Below are positions 7,325 to 10,503 of a stretch of DNA of 64,000 nucleotides, in pieces. The stretch is from NCBI GenBank assembly GCA_965248055.1, contig CBDFIJ010000004.1, positions 1,248,001 to 1,312,000 of the forward strand, in the 5' to 3' direction. Each line of letters opens with the position of its first letter. Within the stretch, counting starts at the first letter, position 1. The DNA is from Candidatus Multivoradales bacterium. GTDB lineage: Bacteria; Acidobacteriota; Thermoanaerobaculia; Multivoradales; JAHEKO01. Below the pieces are notes generated by a model, which searched no databases, had not been told where the DNA came from, and saw only the letters and a program-made list of their open reading frames with translations. Position numbers and translations under genes: made by a program.

Positions 7325-9100
7325 TCACAACGGCCAGACGAGCAGGATCATCGGGATCCCGACGAACAGCACCAGAATCTCGAGCGGCAGGCCCATCCTC
7401 CAATAATCGCCGAATCGGTAACCCCCAGGGCCGAGGATGATGGTGTTGTTCTTGTGCCCGATCGGGGTCAGGAAAGCGCAAGAGGCCGCGACCGCGACGG
7501 CCATCAAGAAGGTGTCGGGGTTGGCGTTGAGGCGTTGGGCGATCTCGACCCCGATTGGCGCTGCAATGAGGGCCGTGGCAACGTTGTTGAGAACGTCGGA
7601 GAGAGTCATGGTGATGACCATCAGTAGCGCCACAACCGCTACCGTCGGCAGGCCTTCGGTCCAAGCCACCAGGTGATTGGCGATCAGTCCGGTGCCACCG
7701 CTCTCCTCGAGGGCGACGCTCAGCGGGATCATCGAGCCCAGAAGAACGATCACCGACCATTCGACCGATTCGTAGATCTCGCTCAACGGCACGATATTGA
7801 GAACAACGTAGAGGGCGACGACCGCCGCCAGCGCAACCGGCAGGTAGACCCAGCCCAAGCTAGCCACCACGATGGCGGCGACGAACGCACCGACGGCGAC
7901 CCCGGCCTTCTGACGCTGCGACACTTCGAGACCCCGCTCAGCCAGGGGCAGACAGCCCAACCAGTGGGCAACGTCCGGCATATGCCCCTTGGGCCCCAGC
8001 AGCAACAGGATGTCACCAGATCGAATTGGGGCTTTGCGCACCCTTTCGCGAATACGACGGCCGCTTCGTGAGATCCCGAGCAGCGTCACACCCCGGCGAG
8101 CGAGCAGCCGCGCTTCCATTGCCGAGCGTCCGGCGATTCTTGCCCCGGCCGGTACAACAACCTCGACCATATCCAGTGAATCCGAGGCCACGCTGTCTTT
8201 CTTCCGCGATGCCGAGAGCTTGAGATCCGCAGAGCCCGCCAGCTCGTGAATTGCATCGGGAGCGCCGCCGAGAACAACAAAGTCACTCTTGCGCAGTTCT
8301 TCATCCAGTGCCAGGCCAGGCAGGCGTCTGCCGCGCCGCACGAGACCGAGAAGGTCGACCTCGTTCTCTTCGCTCAGCTCGAGCAAGTCTCGGAACCGCT
8401 TTCCGAGAAACGGTGACGACTCGTTGACTCCTACTTCTGCGACATACTCCTGGAGTTCCTCGAGCTCCCGTACCGCGTCGTGCCGGCTCCGATCCCTGGG
8501 GACCAACCGCCATCCAACCAGCGCCACGTAGATGACACCAACGACGGCCACCGCCGCTCCCACTGGGGCGAAGTCAAACATCCCGTACGGCTTCCCCAGG
8601 GCGTCCTCACGAAAGGTCGCGATCACGATATTCGGTGGCGTTCCGATCAGGGTCACCATGCCCCCCAGAATCGAGGCGAACGAGATCGGCATCAGCGATA
8701 GCGACGGACTGCGCTTCGCCTTGTGGGCCGCCTTGATATCGAGCGGCATCAGCAACGCGAGCGCCGCAACGTTGTTCATTGCAGTCGAGAGTATCGCCGC
8801 TAGGCTTGCCATGATGCCGATGTGTCCCGGAAGGCTTCGGGAAGAATCGAGCACCCTGAGAGCCAGTAAGTCGATCGCCCCCGAGCGCGAGAGCCCGCGG
8901 CTGACGATCAGGACAAGAGCGATGATGACTACCGCCGGATGCCCGAATCCGGAGAAGATCTGATTCTTGGGAACGAGCCCCAAAACGGCGGCGAGAATCA
9001 GGGCCCCGAAGGCCACGACGTCGTACCGAAACTTACCCCAAATCAGTAGGACGAAAACCGCGGAGACGATGGCAAATAGCACGATCTGGTCGAACGTCAC
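7325..9100 (-). CDS. SLC13 family permease with TrkA-C domains
   Basis: MNNVAALA, LIGTPPN, FLTPIGHKNN..GPGGYRFGDY motifs. Confidence 0.92.
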   Translation of the reverse strand: MTFDQIVLFAIVSAVFVLLIWGKFRYDVVAFGALILAAVLGLVPKNQIFSGFGHPAVVIIALVLIVSRGLSRSGAIDLLALRVLDSSRSLPGHIGIMASLAAILSTAMNNVAALALLMPLDIKAAHKAKRSPSLSLMPISFASILGGMVTLIGTPPNIVIATFREDALGKPYGMFDFAPVGAAVAVVGVIYVALVGWRLVPRDRSRHDAVRELEELQEYVAEVGVNESSPFLGKRFRDLLELSEENEVDLLGLVRRGRRLPGLALDEELRKSDFVVLGGAPDAIHELAGSADLKLSASRKKDSVASDSLDMVEVVVPAGARIAGRSAMEARLLARRGVTLLGISRSGRRIRERVRKAPIRSGDILLLLGPKGHMPDVAHWLGCLPLAERGLEVSQRQKAGVAVGAFVAAIVVASLGWVYLPVALAAVVALYVVLNIVPLSEIYESVEWSVIVLLGSMIPLSVALEESGGTGLIANHLVAWTEGLPTVAVVALLMVITMTLSDVLNNVATALIAAPIGVEIAQRLNANPDTFLMAVAVAASCAFLTPIGHKNNTIILGPGGYRFGDYWRMGLPLEILVLFVGIPMILLVWPL

Positions 9101-9249
9101 GTAGACACTTTACCCGGAGTGACAGAAACTCTTCGGCTTCAACTGCTCGAAGGTCTGTTACCCGAGCATTGCCGCCCTTTTCTGCAACAGCACCTCTAGT
9201 CGGCAGGCCATGCCTGAGTACCTCCCGATCTTCACTTCGTTTCGTGAAG

Positions 9250-9288
9250 AAAGAAAAAAGGCCCGGAGCGATCATTCGCCCCGAGCCC
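9250..9288 (-). terminator. Intrinsic terminator of the minus-strand small transcript
   Basis: 13-bp stem GGGCUCGGGGCGA/UCGCUCCGGGCCU (with G-U pairs) followed by U-rich tail. Confidence 0.75.
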
Positions 9289-9358
9289 GGATGGTTCGCG
9301 TTGGTAGCGTTGGGTCACTTCGACAGACCCGCAAGCAGCAAACGCTCTAAAAGGGTGT

Positions 9359-9403
9359 CTAGAAGCCAGCCACCTCCGTCGAACCGTGTTTACTACTAAC
9401 CAC
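9359..9403 (-). CDS. Putative 14-aa micropeptide MVSSKHGSTEVAGF
   Basis: GTG start directly after AAAAAGGAGGTGATCCA; TAG stop at 9359-9361. Confidence 0.5.
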   Translation of the reverse strand: MVSSKHGSTEVAGF

Positions 9404-9642
9404 TGGATCACCTCCTTTTTCGAGCGTACTTAAGGTGCGGCAGGACCCAAACCCGCCCGGGACGAACAGCCGCTCCCAAACCGCCCGACCCGCCGCCCGG
9501 TTGACCAGGACACCAACGATGACCTGCCGACCGCTACGGAACTCGCCGCGATATTGACGCAATTGCCGCTGCTACGTCAATTTCAAGGGTCAAGGCTAGC
9601 CGCGATACAATTTAAGGTTCATGGATTCGGAGGAGGATTCTC

Positions 9643-10503
9643 ATGGCGAACTACAGAACCCCAGTTTTTGGTCGAGGGCAGCAGGTGCAGAGGCAACGCC
9701 GCGGTGGTTTTAACAAGGCTCGGCTACTTTTGGCCTTGGGGATCGCAGCCTTTTCTTTGCTGTCCTACTGCCGAACTCGTACCGAGAATCCGGTCACTGG
9801 CGAAACCCAATACGTAGATTTGTCCCCGGATCAAGAAATCGCCTTGGGACTCCAGGCAGCCCCAGAGATGGCCCAACAGCATGGCGGATTACATCCCGAT
9901 CGCGCGGCTCAGGACCAAGTCGACCTGGTGGGCGGTGAGATTGTAAGCAAGTCGATGGCAAGTCAAACGCCCTACAACTTTGAATTTCATCTCCTCGCCG
10001 ACCCCAACACGGTCAACGCCTTTGCTCTCCCAGGGGGCCAAGTGTTTATTACTGCAGCGCTCTACAACCGATTGGAATCAATTGGCCAACTGGCAGGAGT
10101 TCTAGGACATGAGGTCGCTCACGTGGTTGGGCGCCATGGTGCCGAGCACATGGCCAAAGCCAAGCTAACCCAAGGCCTGGCTGGCGCTGCGGTGCTGGCA
10201 ACCTCTGATCCTTCGCAGAGATCCGCTGGTATCGCGCAGATGATCGGCCGCATGATCAACATGAAATATGGGCGGGCAGATGAACTGGAGTCCGACAAGT
10301 TTGGGATTTGGTTCATGTCTGACGCCGGTTATGACCCCAGATCGATGGAGCGGGTGATGGAGATTTTGGCAGAGGCCTCCCAGGGGCCGCGGCCCGCCGA
10401 GTTCTTCTCCACCCACCCCAACCCAGAGCAACGGGTAGAGCAAATCCGGGCCGAGATTCAGCGTCGATTCCCCAGCGGGGTACCGTCGACTCTCAAGCCT
10501 TAG
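9643..10503 (+). CDS. M48 family metallopeptidase
   Basis: VNAFALPGG, HEVAH, ELESD, FFSTHP; GGAGGA RBS. Confidence 0.92.
   Translation: MANYRTPVFGRGQQVQRQRRGGFNKARLLLALGIAAFSLLSYCRTRTENPVTGETQYVDLSPDQEIALGLQAAPEMAQQHGGLHPDRAAQDQVDLVGGEIVSKSMASQTPYNFEFHLLADPNTVNAFALPGGQVFITAALYNRLESIGQLAGVLGHEVAHVVGRHGAEHMAKAKLTQGLAGAAVLATSDPSQRSAGIAQMIGRMINMKYGRADELESDKFGIWFMSDAGYDPRSMERVMEILAEASQGPRPAEFFSTHPNPEQRVEQIRAEIQRRFPSGVPSTLKP

What the first reader, a model, noticed from the sequence alone, without database searches (positions are those of the whole stretch)
9250..9581. Structured ~300-nt RNA with a 16-nt perfect complement to the 16S rRNA 3' end and a 14-codon ORF
Seen on the minus strand, in order: (1) candidate promoter TTGACG-N18-CAATAT within an ATTGACG/CGTCAAT inverted repeat; (2) a ~125-nt G-U-rich 5' domain closed by nested helices CGAG/CUCG, CGUA/UACG, GGU/ACC and CGGCAGG/CCUGCCG; (3) immediately after it, AAAGGAGGUGAUCCAG (9418-9403); (4) GTG-started MVSSKHGSTEVAGF* with a second internal GGAGGUG; (5) a GCGUU/AACGC + GGGUC/GACCC hairpin; (6) a terminator. 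Known: the conserved bacterial 16S 3' end is CUGGAUCACCUCCUUU, and ordinary SD pairing is much shorter. Inference: a self-contained RNA that may trap 30S subunits via the anti-SD (ribosome storage, or a shift toward leaderless mRNAs), or a dual-function sRNA/micropeptide. I do not recognise it as a named family.
Basis: partly seen in the sequence, partly recalled or inferred. Interest (0 to 1): 0.8.

Follow-up and report, generated by a model that had tools for sequence, protein, structure and literature searches.

The report
Ribosome-docking small RNA with tiny ORF
This is a conserved, single-copy gene for a folded RNA of about 290 bases that carries a perfect 16-base match to the end of the cell's own 16S ribosomal RNA in front of a 14-codon reading frame, a little-known kind of ribosome-binding mini-messenger so far described only in alpha-proteobacteria, whose purpose is still unknown.

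Summary
AAAGGAGGTGATCCAG (9418-9403, minus strand) is a perfect complement of this genome's 16S 3' end. Its last G opens a GTG-started 14-codon ORF, and a terminator follows.

The element is a stand-alone gene found once per genome. The SD+GTG module occurs in 70 of 121 genomes of the order, and its neighbours are not conserved.

It is not in Rfam at gathering score; the best match is CC2171 at 27.5 bits against a cut-off of 75. It does fit a published class: the rre small mRNAs (rreB and rreR, Hahn et al. 2016), which have a 16-17 nt SD, a GTG start and a 14-18 codon ORF. For rreB the paper shows tight 30S binding and weak translation; function is unknown.

Three things are new here:
- It occurs outside alpha-proteobacteria.
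- It has a covariation-supported fold: a 5' domain (P2, P3) whose hairpin loop pairs just upstream of the SD (pseudoknot PK1, well supported). A second loop contact with the 3' domain (PK2) is only weakly supported.
- It has a second invariant SD-like GGAGGUGGC. This is half buried in a long-range helix, lies 6-8 nt before the stop in most copies (10 nt in 11 TGA-ending ones), and is read in three different frames in sister families.

The ORF is always open (0 of 124 copies with an in-frame stop, against 84 and 82 in the other frames), but the peptide is barely conserved. Selection seems to act on translation, not on the product.

Verdict: a new variant of a known kind. The physiological role is unresolved.

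The parts
9551..9580 (-). Candidate promoter: -35 TTGACG (9580-9575), 18-nt spacer, -10-like CAATAT (9556-9551). A transcript start near 9545 is inferred.
   Evidence: The sequence is present but is not called by the consensus scan. TTGAC is kept at the equivalent position in 12 of 12 relatives and in 77 of 109 unique family loci, against 8 of 109 in the control.
9419..9500 (-). Conserved 5' domain: P2 (9492-9487 with 9463-9458), the inner hairpin P2a with loop GGGAGCG (9477-9471), and P3 (9457-9452 with 9444-9439) with loop UUUGGGU (9451-9445).
   Evidence: Covariance model R1 hits G000:C4:1257419-1257500, which is window 9419-9500. Pair counts: P2 98.9% and 94.1% of cells paired in its two segments, with 5 of its 6 pairs changed on both sides; P3 96.1% paired, with 5 of 6 pairs changed on both sides.
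9422..9426 (-). 3' strand of pseudoknot PK1 (CGCUC). It pairs with GAGCG (9475-9471) in the P2a loop and ends 3 nt before the 16-mer.
   Evidence: 96.8% of cells are paired and 3 of 5 pairs change on both sides. Variants include GGGCG/CGCCC, GAGCG/CGCTC, AGGCG/CGCCT and GGACG/CGTCC, plus an inversion GCCC/GGGC in L200 and L207.
9403..9418 (-). SD1: AAAGGAGGUGAUCCAG, a 16-nt perfect complement of the genome's own 16S 3' end. Its last base is the G of the start codon.
   Evidence: Natural variants in relatives (GGUCC, GGUCUAG) are wobble-preserving against an unchanged 16S end. The A-to-U variant is not compensated in G011.
9359..9403 (-). Mini-ORF: GTG (9403-9401), 14 codons MVSSKHGSTEVAGF, stop TAG (9361-9359).
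   Evidence: No in-frame stop in 0 of 124 unique homologs, against 84 and 82 of 124 in the other frames. Length changes come in whole codons.
9369..9377 (-). SD2: a second SD-like motif GGAGGUGGC inside the ORF, 7 nt before the stop codon.
   Evidence: It was present in all 12 homologs found by similarity alone. It is read as E-V-A here but as G-G-G or R-R-W in sister families.
9303..9310 (-). 3' strand of long-range helix P5 (ACGCUACC), which pairs with GGUGGCUG (9374-9367). Six of 8 positions pair in this copy.
   Evidence: 97.2% of cells are paired over 89 sequences; variation is almost only by wobble-compatible transitions. RNAalifold recovers it, and it forms in 65 of 72 single-sequence folds.
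9311..9315 (-). ACCCA, the proposed 3' strand of pseudoknot PK2 with the P3 loop (UGGGU, 9449-9445). In this copy it can also pair locally with GGGUC (9330-9326).
   Evidence: Support is weak: 85.6% of cells paired and few double changes. CCCC in the 3' strand always goes with GGGG in the loop, in 7 of 7 cases read by eye.
9250..9288 (-). Intrinsic terminator: stem 9288-9259, then UUUUUCUUUC.
   Evidence: Called by the scan. All 10 of its pairs show changes on both sides across homologs.

Best explanation
The locus is an independent, single-copy gene for a structured RNA of about 290 nt, running roughly 9545 to 9250 on the minus strand. It works like the rre small mRNAs of alpha-proteobacteria.

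Proposed mechanism:
1. A 16-nt complement to the 16S 3' end, reaching into the GUG start codon, docks a 30S subunit through an unusually long SD:anti-SD helix.
2. The 14-codon ORF behind it is translated, probably slowly. What is selected is passage of a ribosome, not the peptide.
3. In this family, which is probably acidobacterial, the module sits in a conserved fold. A 5' domain (P2, P2a, P3) clamps the segment just 5' of the SD by pseudoknot PK1, and possibly touches the 3' domain by PK2. SD1 itself stays unpaired.
4. A second invariant SD-like GGAGGUGGC near the ORF end is half buried in helix P5 with ACGCCACC. A translating ribosome must open P5.
5. When the stop codon reaches the A site, SD2 lies at about the distance from the P site that an SD has at initiation. 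The anti-SD could then pass from SD1 to SD2.

Ribosome binding and one short round of translation would therefore set the RNA's conformation and probably its lifetime.

Shown here: conservation, copy number, the open frame, the fold, and complementarity to the genome's own 16S. Inferred: 30S binding, slow translation, the hand-over, and any effect on stability. The physiological output is not known.
For: 1. The class features match rreB and rreR as described in PMC5711450 (abstract, first part of Results, sections 18-19 read): at least 16 nt of complementarity running into a GTG start, a 14-18 codon ORF and a small separate transcript. The window has 16 nt ending on the G of GTG, then 14 codons.

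These are mostly alpha-proteobacteria, with Acidobacteriota and Phycisphaerales also present.

3. It is a stand-alone, single-copy gene:
- The module is in 70 of 121 genomes of the order. Of these, 69 have one copy and 1 has two. The reversed-pattern control gave 6 hits.
- The 5'-domain model R1 hits 39 of 61 relatives, exactly once each, and directly abutting the module in every genome where both sets of coordinates were compared.
- No neighbour is conserved across 124 loci; the largest cluster holds 7.

4. The frame is kept open. In-frame stops occur in 0 of 124 unique sequences, against 84 and 82 of 124 in the other frames. Spacer classes differ by multiples of 3 within each family.

5. The peptide is not conserved. 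Mean column entropy at codon positions 1, 2 and 3 is 1.18, 1.35 and 1.25.

6. The fold is supported on 89 sequences. 94.3% of cells are paired, against 87.3% in shuffles (0 of 500 reach the observed value). There are 282 double-change cells against 67.5 (0 of 500). Slid controls give 38-50% paired.

7. SD1 variants in relatives are pair-preserving against an identical 16S end: A to G opposite U, and C to U opposite G.

8. SD2 lies 7 nt (family A), 6 nt (C) or 8 nt (D) before the stop, although it is read in three different frames. I derived this from the lengths.
Against: - No expression, 30S-binding or translation data exist for this RNA or for any member of its family. No RNA run was listed for it.
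- The analogy rests on one experimental paper about a sequence-unrelated RNA. There, the SD region is predicted to be largely double-stranded and the 5' leader is short.
- There is no sequence similarity to rreB, rreR or CC2171 beyond the module and the terminator. The CC2171 score is 27.5 bits against a cut-off of 75. Common descent is therefore not shown, and convergence is possible.
- SD2 invariance in the two large sets is partly built in, because the search patterns required it. Only the 12 similarity-found homologs are free of that bias.
- P5 shows almost no two-sided covariation, because one strand never varies.
- PK2 is weak at 85.6% paired.
- The A-to-U variant at position 15 of SD1 is a mismatch against an unchanged 16S in G011. 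The full 16 nt is therefore not required everywhere.
- Gly at codon 7 and Leu/Ser at codon 8 are fairly conserved, so a role for the peptide is not excluded.
- The single-sequence fold energy is ordinary (z = -1.40).
Confidence: 0.7

Rival explanations
1. It is an ordinary gene for a functional 14-residue micropeptide with a very strong ribosome-binding site. The RNA structure only tunes expression.
For: The frame is open in 124 of 124 unique homologs. Gly at codon 7 occurs in 73 of 87, and Leu/Ser at codon 8 in 76 of 87, of the 23-nt spacer class. The C-terminal part xEVA(S/A)x recurs.
Against: - Codons 2-6 are nearly free, and there is no third-position excess.
- E-V-A is encoded by GGAGGUGGC. 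Sister families with a homologous 3' domain read this motif as GGG or RRW.
- No partner gene is conserved nearby.
Confidence: 0.12
2. It is a ribosome sponge or storage RNA. It titrates 30S subunits, or mature 16S 3' ends, to lower or re-route bulk translation, for example toward leaderless mRNAs.
For: A 16-nt SD:anti-SD duplex should be very stable. SD1 lies in no supported helix. rreB co-sediments with 30S (PMC5711450, Results).
Against: - With a single gene copy, the RNA would have to be extremely abundant to matter.
- For rreB the authors report many more ribosomes than rreB RNA, and no growth effect of overproduction (PMC5711450, Discussion).
- A pure sponge needs no open frame, yet the frame is strictly kept.
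Confidence: 0.07
3. It is a riboswitch-like or leader element. The 5' pseudoknotted domain senses a ligand or protein and controls translation or termination, regulating the downstream transporter gene.
For: A conserved pseudoknot ends 3 nt from the SD. A terminator follows, and a CitMHS/TrkA-C transporter gene lies downstream on the same strand.
Against: - Downstream genes differ among 124 loci.
- The 5' domain is found only once per genome and only next to this module, never in front of other genes.
- Sister family C keeps the SD, ORF and 3' domain without the 5' domain.
- The pseudoknot does not cover the SD.
Confidence: 0.05
4. It is a trans-acting base-pairing sRNA with a dual function. 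Its CCUCC and CGCCACC segments, which mimic the anti-SD, bind the ribosome-binding sites of target mRNAs. Translation of the mini-ORF exposes them.
For: Most family members carry (C)CUCC 6-12 nt after the stop. In single-sequence folds it pairs internally with a downstream GGAG-type segment in 44 of 72 cases. Translation could release such pairing.
Against: The window's own copy lacks a CCUCC; the sequence there is ACACCCUUUU. It is absent in 11 of 72 sequences. No targets were sought or found.
Confidence: 0.05

Closest known systems
rre small mRNAs (rreB of Bradyrhizobiaceae, rreR of Rhodobacterales; Hahn et al. 2016, RNA Biol 14:1353, PMC5711450)
   Same: - 16-17 nt of perfect complementarity to the 16S 3' end, spanning both sides of the core SD and ending in the first base of a GTG start.
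- An ORF of 14-18 codons.
- A small separate transcript with its own promoter and terminator.
- One conserved peptide family per clade, with no similarity between clades.
- Genomic context not conserved between clades.
   Different: - Reported only for alpha-proteobacteria; the words Acidobacteria, Planctomycetes, Rfam and CC2171 do not occur in the main text.
- rreB is 165 nt with a short leader, and its SD region is predicted to be mostly in a hairpin.
- The RNA here is about 290 nt. It has a 5' domain of roughly 120 nt with a pseudoknot (PK1) and a possible second one (PK2), an unpaired SD, a second invariant SD-like motif in a long-range helix, and a peptide that is hardly conserved.
- There is no sequence similarity beyond the module.
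Rfam RF01867, CC2171 (Caulobacter sRNA)
   Same: The family consensus begins ...GAAAGGAGGUGAUCCAGUG and ends in a terminator. The model matches the window end to end (positions 1-159, window 9260-9421, minus strand). It covers the MSHC... peptide subfamily in Methylobacterium, Brevundimonas and Bosea at 88-97 bits. CC2171 is expressed in Caulobacter and M. extorquens, and its function is unknown (bioRxiv 10.1101/2022.01.24.477521, passages read).
   Different: The score is 27.5 bits against a gathering score of 75. The alignment is carried by the 19-nt module and the terminator, while the middle is unaligned (posterior probabilities are low). The model has no 5' domain and no SD2.
tmRNA (recalled from general knowledge, not tested beyond the Rfam scan)
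   Same: A short mRNA-like frame is embedded in a structured RNA, with a pseudoknot immediately upstream of the frame and the stop region in a hairpin.
   Different: tmRNA has a tRNA-like domain and no SD or start codon. Nothing of that kind is seen here, and there is no Rfam tmRNA match in the window.
mRNA leaders that hold 30S subunits on the platform (rpsO pseudoknot with S15) and STAB-SD stabilisers of Bacillus mRNAs (both recalled, not tested)
   Same: A structured element or strong SD close to the 5' side of the start site engages the 30S subunit without efficient elongation. Ribosome binding affects mRNA fate.
   Different: Those are parts of ordinary long mRNAs with a protein product or regulator. 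Here the whole gene is the element.

Membership tests
rre-type small mRNA (Hahn et al. 2016) | At least 16 nt of perfect complementarity to the organism's own 16S 3' end, extending 5' and 3' of the core SD | tested here: met
   The 16-mer at 9418-9403 against the own 16S end ...GGCTGGATCACCTCCTTT.
rre-type small mRNA (Hahn et al. 2016) | The complementarity ends in the first base of a GTG start codon of a short ORF (14-18 codons in rreB and rreR) | tested here: met
   G9403 is both the last base of the 16-mer and the first base of GTG. The ORF has 14 codons.
rre-type small mRNA (Hahn et al. 2016) | A small separate transcript with its own promoter and terminator | tested here: inconclusive
   A terminator is called. 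The -35 box is conserved in homologs, but the promoter is not called in the window. No RNA data exist.
rre-type small mRNA (Hahn et al. 2016) | Strong association with 30S subunits, weak translation, and start-codon-dependent turnover | not testable with these tools
   These are experimental properties shown only for rreB (PMC5711450).
rre-type small mRNA (Hahn et al. 2016) | Sequence homology of the RNA or peptide to rreB or rreR | tested here: not met
   Peptide families differ. Nothing is alignable beyond the module. Rfam-based comparison gives only a sub-threshold CC2171 hit. The claim is therefore 'works like', not shared descent.
Rfam RF01867 CC2171 | Covariance-model score at or above the gathering score (75 bits) | tested here: not met
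   27.5 bits in the window and 26.9-33.6 bits in three relatives. No hit at gathering. True members score 88-97 bits.
Riboswitch / cis-regulatory leader | The structured domain recurs upstream of functionally related genes and controls them | tested here: not met
   R1 hits once per genome, only beside the mini-ORF. Neighbours are not conserved.
Any Rfam 15 family | A match at gathering score anywhere in the window | tested here: not met
   0 matches in 64,000 bases on both strands.

The most novel reading that the evidence does not exclude
SD-maximal mini-ORF RNAs may form a widespread class, spanning several phyla, of dedicated ribosome-docking RNAs. In the version here, a pseudoknotted scaffold presents a bait that only a mature, free 16S 3' end can pair with over 16-17 nt. 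A first short translation run then passes the anti-SD from SD1 to a second SD placed at initiation-like distance from the stop, remodelling the RNA. Such a device could act as a test drive or quality check for newly made 30S subunits. It could also act as a sensor that reports the pool of free, translation-competent ribosomes through its own conformation and decay.
Probability: 0.1. Interest if true: 0.9.

Novelty: new variant of a known kind. Interest (0 to 1): 0.6.

Why it matters
The rre genes are an almost unstudied curiosity. The held library has one experimental paper, the function is unknown, and no other paper in it mentions rreB in bacteria.

This work shows that the same exact module (maximal SD, fixed spacer, GUG, tiny ORF) is kept once per genome in more than half of an order that is probably acidobacterial. 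It also appears in other unrelated-looking RNA scaffolds in Acidobacteriota, Phycisphaerales and Burkholderiales. That argues for a general, ribosome-centred function rather than a clade-specific peptide.

The family here adds features that can be tested: a pseudoknot abutting the SD, a second SD kept at the RNA level in three reading frames at a fixed distance from the stop, and an ORF selected for openness only. These give concrete mutational handles on how a ribosome is captured, moved and released on a non-coding-like RNA.

It also links Rfam CC2171 to the rre class. Neither source makes that link: CC2171 occurs 0 times in the paper's main text.

Tried and rejected
- **Expression.** The look-up of sequencing runs listed no RNA holder for 9200-9650, only 5 runs of unrecorded kind (marked '?'), all kept as contigs: four full holders from one study and one small-share run from another.
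- **Literature search by motif letters** was swamped by the 16S reverse primer and gave nothing. A search for the original Caulobacter sRNA paper did not find it in the library. I did not read Landt et al.; what I say of CC2171 comes from Rfam output and from passages of bioRxiv 10.1101/2022.01.24.477521 and PMC11701678.
- **Supplements** of PMC5711450 (extended alignments, E. coli fractionation) were not seen. They may list more taxa than the main text.
- **Single-sequence folding** gave an ordinary energy (z = -1.40).
- **Promoter scan.** No promoter was called in the window.
- **Alternative switch helices** were considered and found weak:
  - P4, SD2 GGAGG with CCUCC after the stop: 85.1% paired, no two-sided changes.
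  - P6, GUGGCG with CGCCAC: 85.8% paired, one double change per pair.
  - By eye in A2, the GUGGCG segment looks like part of a local hairpin (GCG/CGC, GUG/CAC, GCC/GGC). I did not count this formally.
- **RNAalifold on 72 3' domains** recovered only P5, because the interior aligns poorly. I gave it 72 of the 82 references I had. Seven rows with long insertions or poor alignment (L145, L147, L151, L206, L233, L253, L262) were dropped from the 89 first. Ten more (L165, L191, L204, L207, L210, L215, L229, L231, L234, L241) were left out to shorten the call.
- **Alignment A3 and model R1** used 84 of 89 rows. L007, L151, L165, L253 and L262 were dropped for insertions or poor alignment.
- **Remnant 16S fragment on the + strand.** This idea was rejected. 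Similarity to the rRNA stops at the 16 nt.
- **A second rre-like site in this genome.** Rejected. The only other AGGAGGTGATC lies inside an aspartyl-tRNA-synthetase-like reading frame, as I read the translation by eye.
- **16S ends of T-variant genomes.** Only 1 of 5 genomes searched had an assembled 16S end.
- **Neighbour analysis** used stop-to-stop segments of at least 90 aa, so it includes spurious frames. It can miss short genes.
Full report
**What is there**

On the minus strand between a divergent M48-peptidase gene (9643-10503, +) and a CitMHS/TrkA-C transporter gene (7325-9100, -) lies a non-coding-looking stretch of about 390 nt.
- TTGACG-N18-CAATAT (9580-9551).
- AAAGGAGGTGATCCAG (9418-9403).
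- A GTG (9403-9401) whose G is the last base of that 16-mer.
- A 14-codon frame, MVSSKHGSTEVAGF, ending at TAG 9361-9359.
- A second GGAGGTGGC (9377-9369).
- A terminator (stem 9288-9259, then a T run).

The genome's single detected 16S gene ends ...CTGTGGCTGGATCACCTCCTTT. The match is therefore exact over 16 nt, with a possible G.U at position 17.

The 16-mer is unique in the window even at 2 mismatches; shuffles give 0.06. The 11-mer AGGAGGTGATC occurs only three times in the 3.4 Mb genome: here, antisense to the 16S end, and once inside a coding frame.

**It is conserved and stands alone**

- A similarity search found homologs in 12 of 61 related genomes.
- The bare module AGGAGGTGRTCCWGTG is in 70 of 121 genomes of the order that are at least 90% complete. 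Of these, 69 have one copy and one has two. The reversed control pattern gave 6 hits.
- A covariance model of the 5' domain alone (R1) hits 39 of 61 relatives, always exactly once, and abutting the module wherever I compared coordinates. The hits include family f8, which has a variant SD. One of the 61 genomes, G002, is flagged unpublished and enters only these counts.
- Flanking genes are not conserved. Among 124 loci the largest neighbour cluster holds 7.
- A TTGAC box lies 130-155 nt upstream of the SD in 77 of 109 unique loci, against 8 of 109 in a control. The window's own promoter is not called by the consensus scan.
- Named records carrying the same family are mostly titled Acidobacteriota or Acidobacteria, with single MAGs labelled Krumholzibacteriia and Fibrobacteraceae. 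From this I infer the phylum.

**The reading frame**

All 21 first homologs keep a GTG-to-stop frame of 13-15 codons.

Over 124 unique sequences none has an in-frame stop between the GTG and the end of the second SD-like motif. In the other two frames 84 and 82 do.

Within each peptide family the spacer length changes only by whole codons:
- Family A: 20, 23, 26 or 29 nt.
- Family C: 24, 27, 30 or 33 nt.
- Family D: 25 or 28 nt.

Stops vary among TAG, TAA and TGA; the TGA ones sit one codon later.

Yet the peptide is hardly conserved. Codons 2-6 are nearly free and there is no third-position excess: mean entropy is 1.18, 1.35 and 1.25 for positions 1, 2 and 3. The invariant E-V-A is simply GGAGGUGGC read in one frame. 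Families C and D read the same motif as G-G-G and R-R-W, and family C at least shares the 3' segment AAUCCCAAC...CCACCGGAG with family A.

From the lengths I derive that the stop begins 7, 6 or 8 nt after the motif in families A, C and D. It begins 10 nt after in the 11 TGA-ending A members. A caveat applies: the two large scans required GGAGGTGGC, so its invariance is unbiased only in the 12 homologs found by similarity. All 12 have it.

**The fold**

On 89 non-redundant family-A sequences (A1) I tested a structure that I had derived from the same alignment. Because of that, the slid controls are somewhat flattering.

Whole-structure measures:
- 94.3% of cells paired, against 87.3% in column shuffles (0 of 500 reach the observed value).
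- 282 cells with changes on both sides, against 67.5 (0 of 500).
- 38-50% paired when partners are slid by 1 to 3 columns.

Well supported:
- P2: 5 of its 6 pairs have two-sided changes.
- P3: 5 of 6 pairs.
- The terminator: 10 of 10 pairs.
- Pseudoknot PK1, between the P2a loop and the five bases that end 3 nt before the 16-mer: 96.8% paired, 3 of 5 pairs with two-sided changes. Variants include GAGCG/CGCTC (as in the window), AGGCG/CGCCT and GGACG/CGTCC, plus an inversion GCCC/GGGC.

Helix P5 pairs GGUGGCGU of the second SD-like motif with ACGCCACC. It is 97.2% paired, but one strand never varies, so its support is wobble-compatible one-sided change only. RNAalifold recovers it, and it forms in 65 of 72 single-sequence folds.

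PK2, between the P3 loop UGGG and ACCCA next to P5, is weak at 85.6% paired.

Alternative pairings of SD2 with a CCUCC after the stop, and of CGCCAC with a second GUGGCG, are weak. In folds the CCUCC mostly pairs with a downstream GGAG-type segment (44 of 72). The window's own copy has no CCUCC.

SD1 lies in no supported helix.

**Pairing with 16S is what is kept**

Relatives carry GGUCCAG, GGUCUAG or GAUCCUG in place of GAUCCAG. The 16S end is identical (GGCTGGATCACCTCCTT) in every one of the nine genomes where I could read it. These include two GGUCUAG carriers, five GGUCCAG carriers and one GGUCCUG carrier.

- A to G faces U, and C to U faces G. Both keep a pair.
- The A-to-U change at position 15 does not; G011 has an unchanged 16S.

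So about 13 nt are under pairing constraint across the order, and the window has the full 16.

**What it is closest to**

Rfam has no match at gathering score. The best sub-threshold match is CC2171 (27.5 bits against 75, full model span). Its consensus begins GAAAGGAGGUGAUCCAGUG. The score comes from that module and the terminator.

In 111 of them the GTG opens a frame of 6-27 codons. These fall into peptide families by clade:
- Rhodobacterales: MSRxVLERGVGT..., 18 aa.
- Bradyrhizobium-like: MSxxKRCHLAGIAR, 14 aa.
- Rhizobiales and Caulobacterales: MSHC..., 21-27 aa.
- Two acidobacterial types.
- A Phycisphaerales type.
- A Burkholderiales type.

The first two are rreR and rreB of Hahn et al. 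2016 (PMC5711450; I read the abstract, the first part of Results, and sections 18 and 19). The paper reports the following:
- A 165-nt mRNA with 17 nt of complementarity that includes the first base of GTG.
- Co-sedimentation with 30S.
- Weak translation, impeded by the extended SD and by GTG.
- Stabilisation when the start codon is replaced by a stop.
- Unstructured peptides.
- No growth effect of overproduction.
- Function unknown.
- Occurrence in four alpha-proteobacterial orders.

The paper's main text does not mention CC2171, Rfam, Acidobacteria or Planctomycetes. At gathering score, Rfam CC2171 matches the MSHC... subfamily but not the rreB-like, rreR-like or other types I tested. I found no other bacterial paper with rreB, and none joining Acidobacteria with an extended SD, in the held library.

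**How it most likely works**

By analogy with rreB, SD1 docks a 30S subunit. The GUG and the long helix make the start slow. The strict openness of a sequence-free frame says that a ribosome does run through.

In this family the ribosome must open P5 to finish. At the stop codon, SD2 is 7-9 nt from the P-site codon, about the spacing of an SD at initiation. The anti-SD could therefore be re-captured there.

The 5' domain, tied by PK1 to the bases just upstream of SD1, would sit where structured leaders are known to lie on the 30S platform. That last point is recalled knowledge and was not tested.

I hold the class assignment, 'works like rre', at about 0.7. The hand-over and platform ideas are inference only. 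Descent from the alpha-proteobacterial genes is not shown.

**Verdict**

Its specific helices and the 'unnamed' claim need correcting. This is a new, more elaborate variant of a known but obscure kind.

Noticed in passing
L028, L042, L060, L109, L112, L122, L130, L134 (named Acidobacteriota MAG records; module position as listed): A second acidobacterial type of the same module, in a much smaller RNA of about 130 nt. It has a short leader with a GUCGAC-type hairpin, the module, and a 6-codon ORF MRY(G/W/C/K)L(R/S). After that comes a terminator whose 5' arm is SD-like (GGAGGCGCUU, followed by GUG) and whose 3' arm is anti-SD-like (AGCGCCUCUCUCC).
   Followed up: partly
L043, L061, L068, L070, L077, L128, L132 (Phycisphaerales MAGs); L064, L075 (Burkholderiales): Further clade-specific families share the exact AAGGAGGTGATCCAGTG module. 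Phycisphaerales has ORFs of 11-12 codons (M..DCT.GLR.) behind its own conserved 5' domain. Burkholderiales has ORFs of 24-26 codons (MRD.QG...). The class therefore reaches beyond alpha-proteobacteria into several phyla.
   Followed up: partly
L148, L154, L160, L194, L201, L240 (family C); L144, L177, L178, L218 (family D), metagenome contigs: Sister families read GGAGGUGGC in other frames (..CGGGCS*, ..DRRWLSA*). Family C has a TTGACA box only about 35 nt upstream of the SD, so it has no 5' domain, yet it shares AAUCCCAAC-AGYCCACCGGAG with family A. What its CCCAAC pairs with is unexplained.
   Followed up: partly
L066, L067, L093 against L096, L098: At gathering score, Rfam CC2171 covers only the MSHC... 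peptide subfamily of the rre-type genes (88-97 bits). The rreB-like locus (L096, next to a tRNA, as the paper describes for rreB) and the rreR-like locus (L098) have no Rfam family.
   Followed up: yes
L264 (G043) and L265 (G053): Family f8 of the order, which had 0 of 18 hits with the exact module pattern, does carry the element. Its SD1 is AAAGGAGGTGGTCTAGTG and its ORF is MEYCSSGLMEVAAL. Pattern-based counts of presence are therefore underestimates.
   Followed up: yes
window 9553-9581, minus strand: The candidate -35 box lies in a 7-nt inverted repeat, ATTGACG ... CGTCAAT, that spans the promoter spacer. This could be an operator. It is not obviously kept in the 11 relatives aligned.
   Followed up: no
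window 9157-9226, minus strand: Between the terminator and the transporter gene there is a GGGAGG followed after 9 nt by ATG (9210) and a 17-codon frame ending in TAA. The transporter's longest frame starts at GTG 9100. It may be a small upstream ORF of the transporter or it may be chance.
   Followed up: no
G000:C4:797375-797385 (L263): The only other AGGAGGTGATC in the genome lies inside a reading frame that looks like aspartyl-tRNA synthetase (..FLWVVDFPMFEY..HHPFTMP..). It is an internal SD-like site of unknown consequence.
   Followed up: partly
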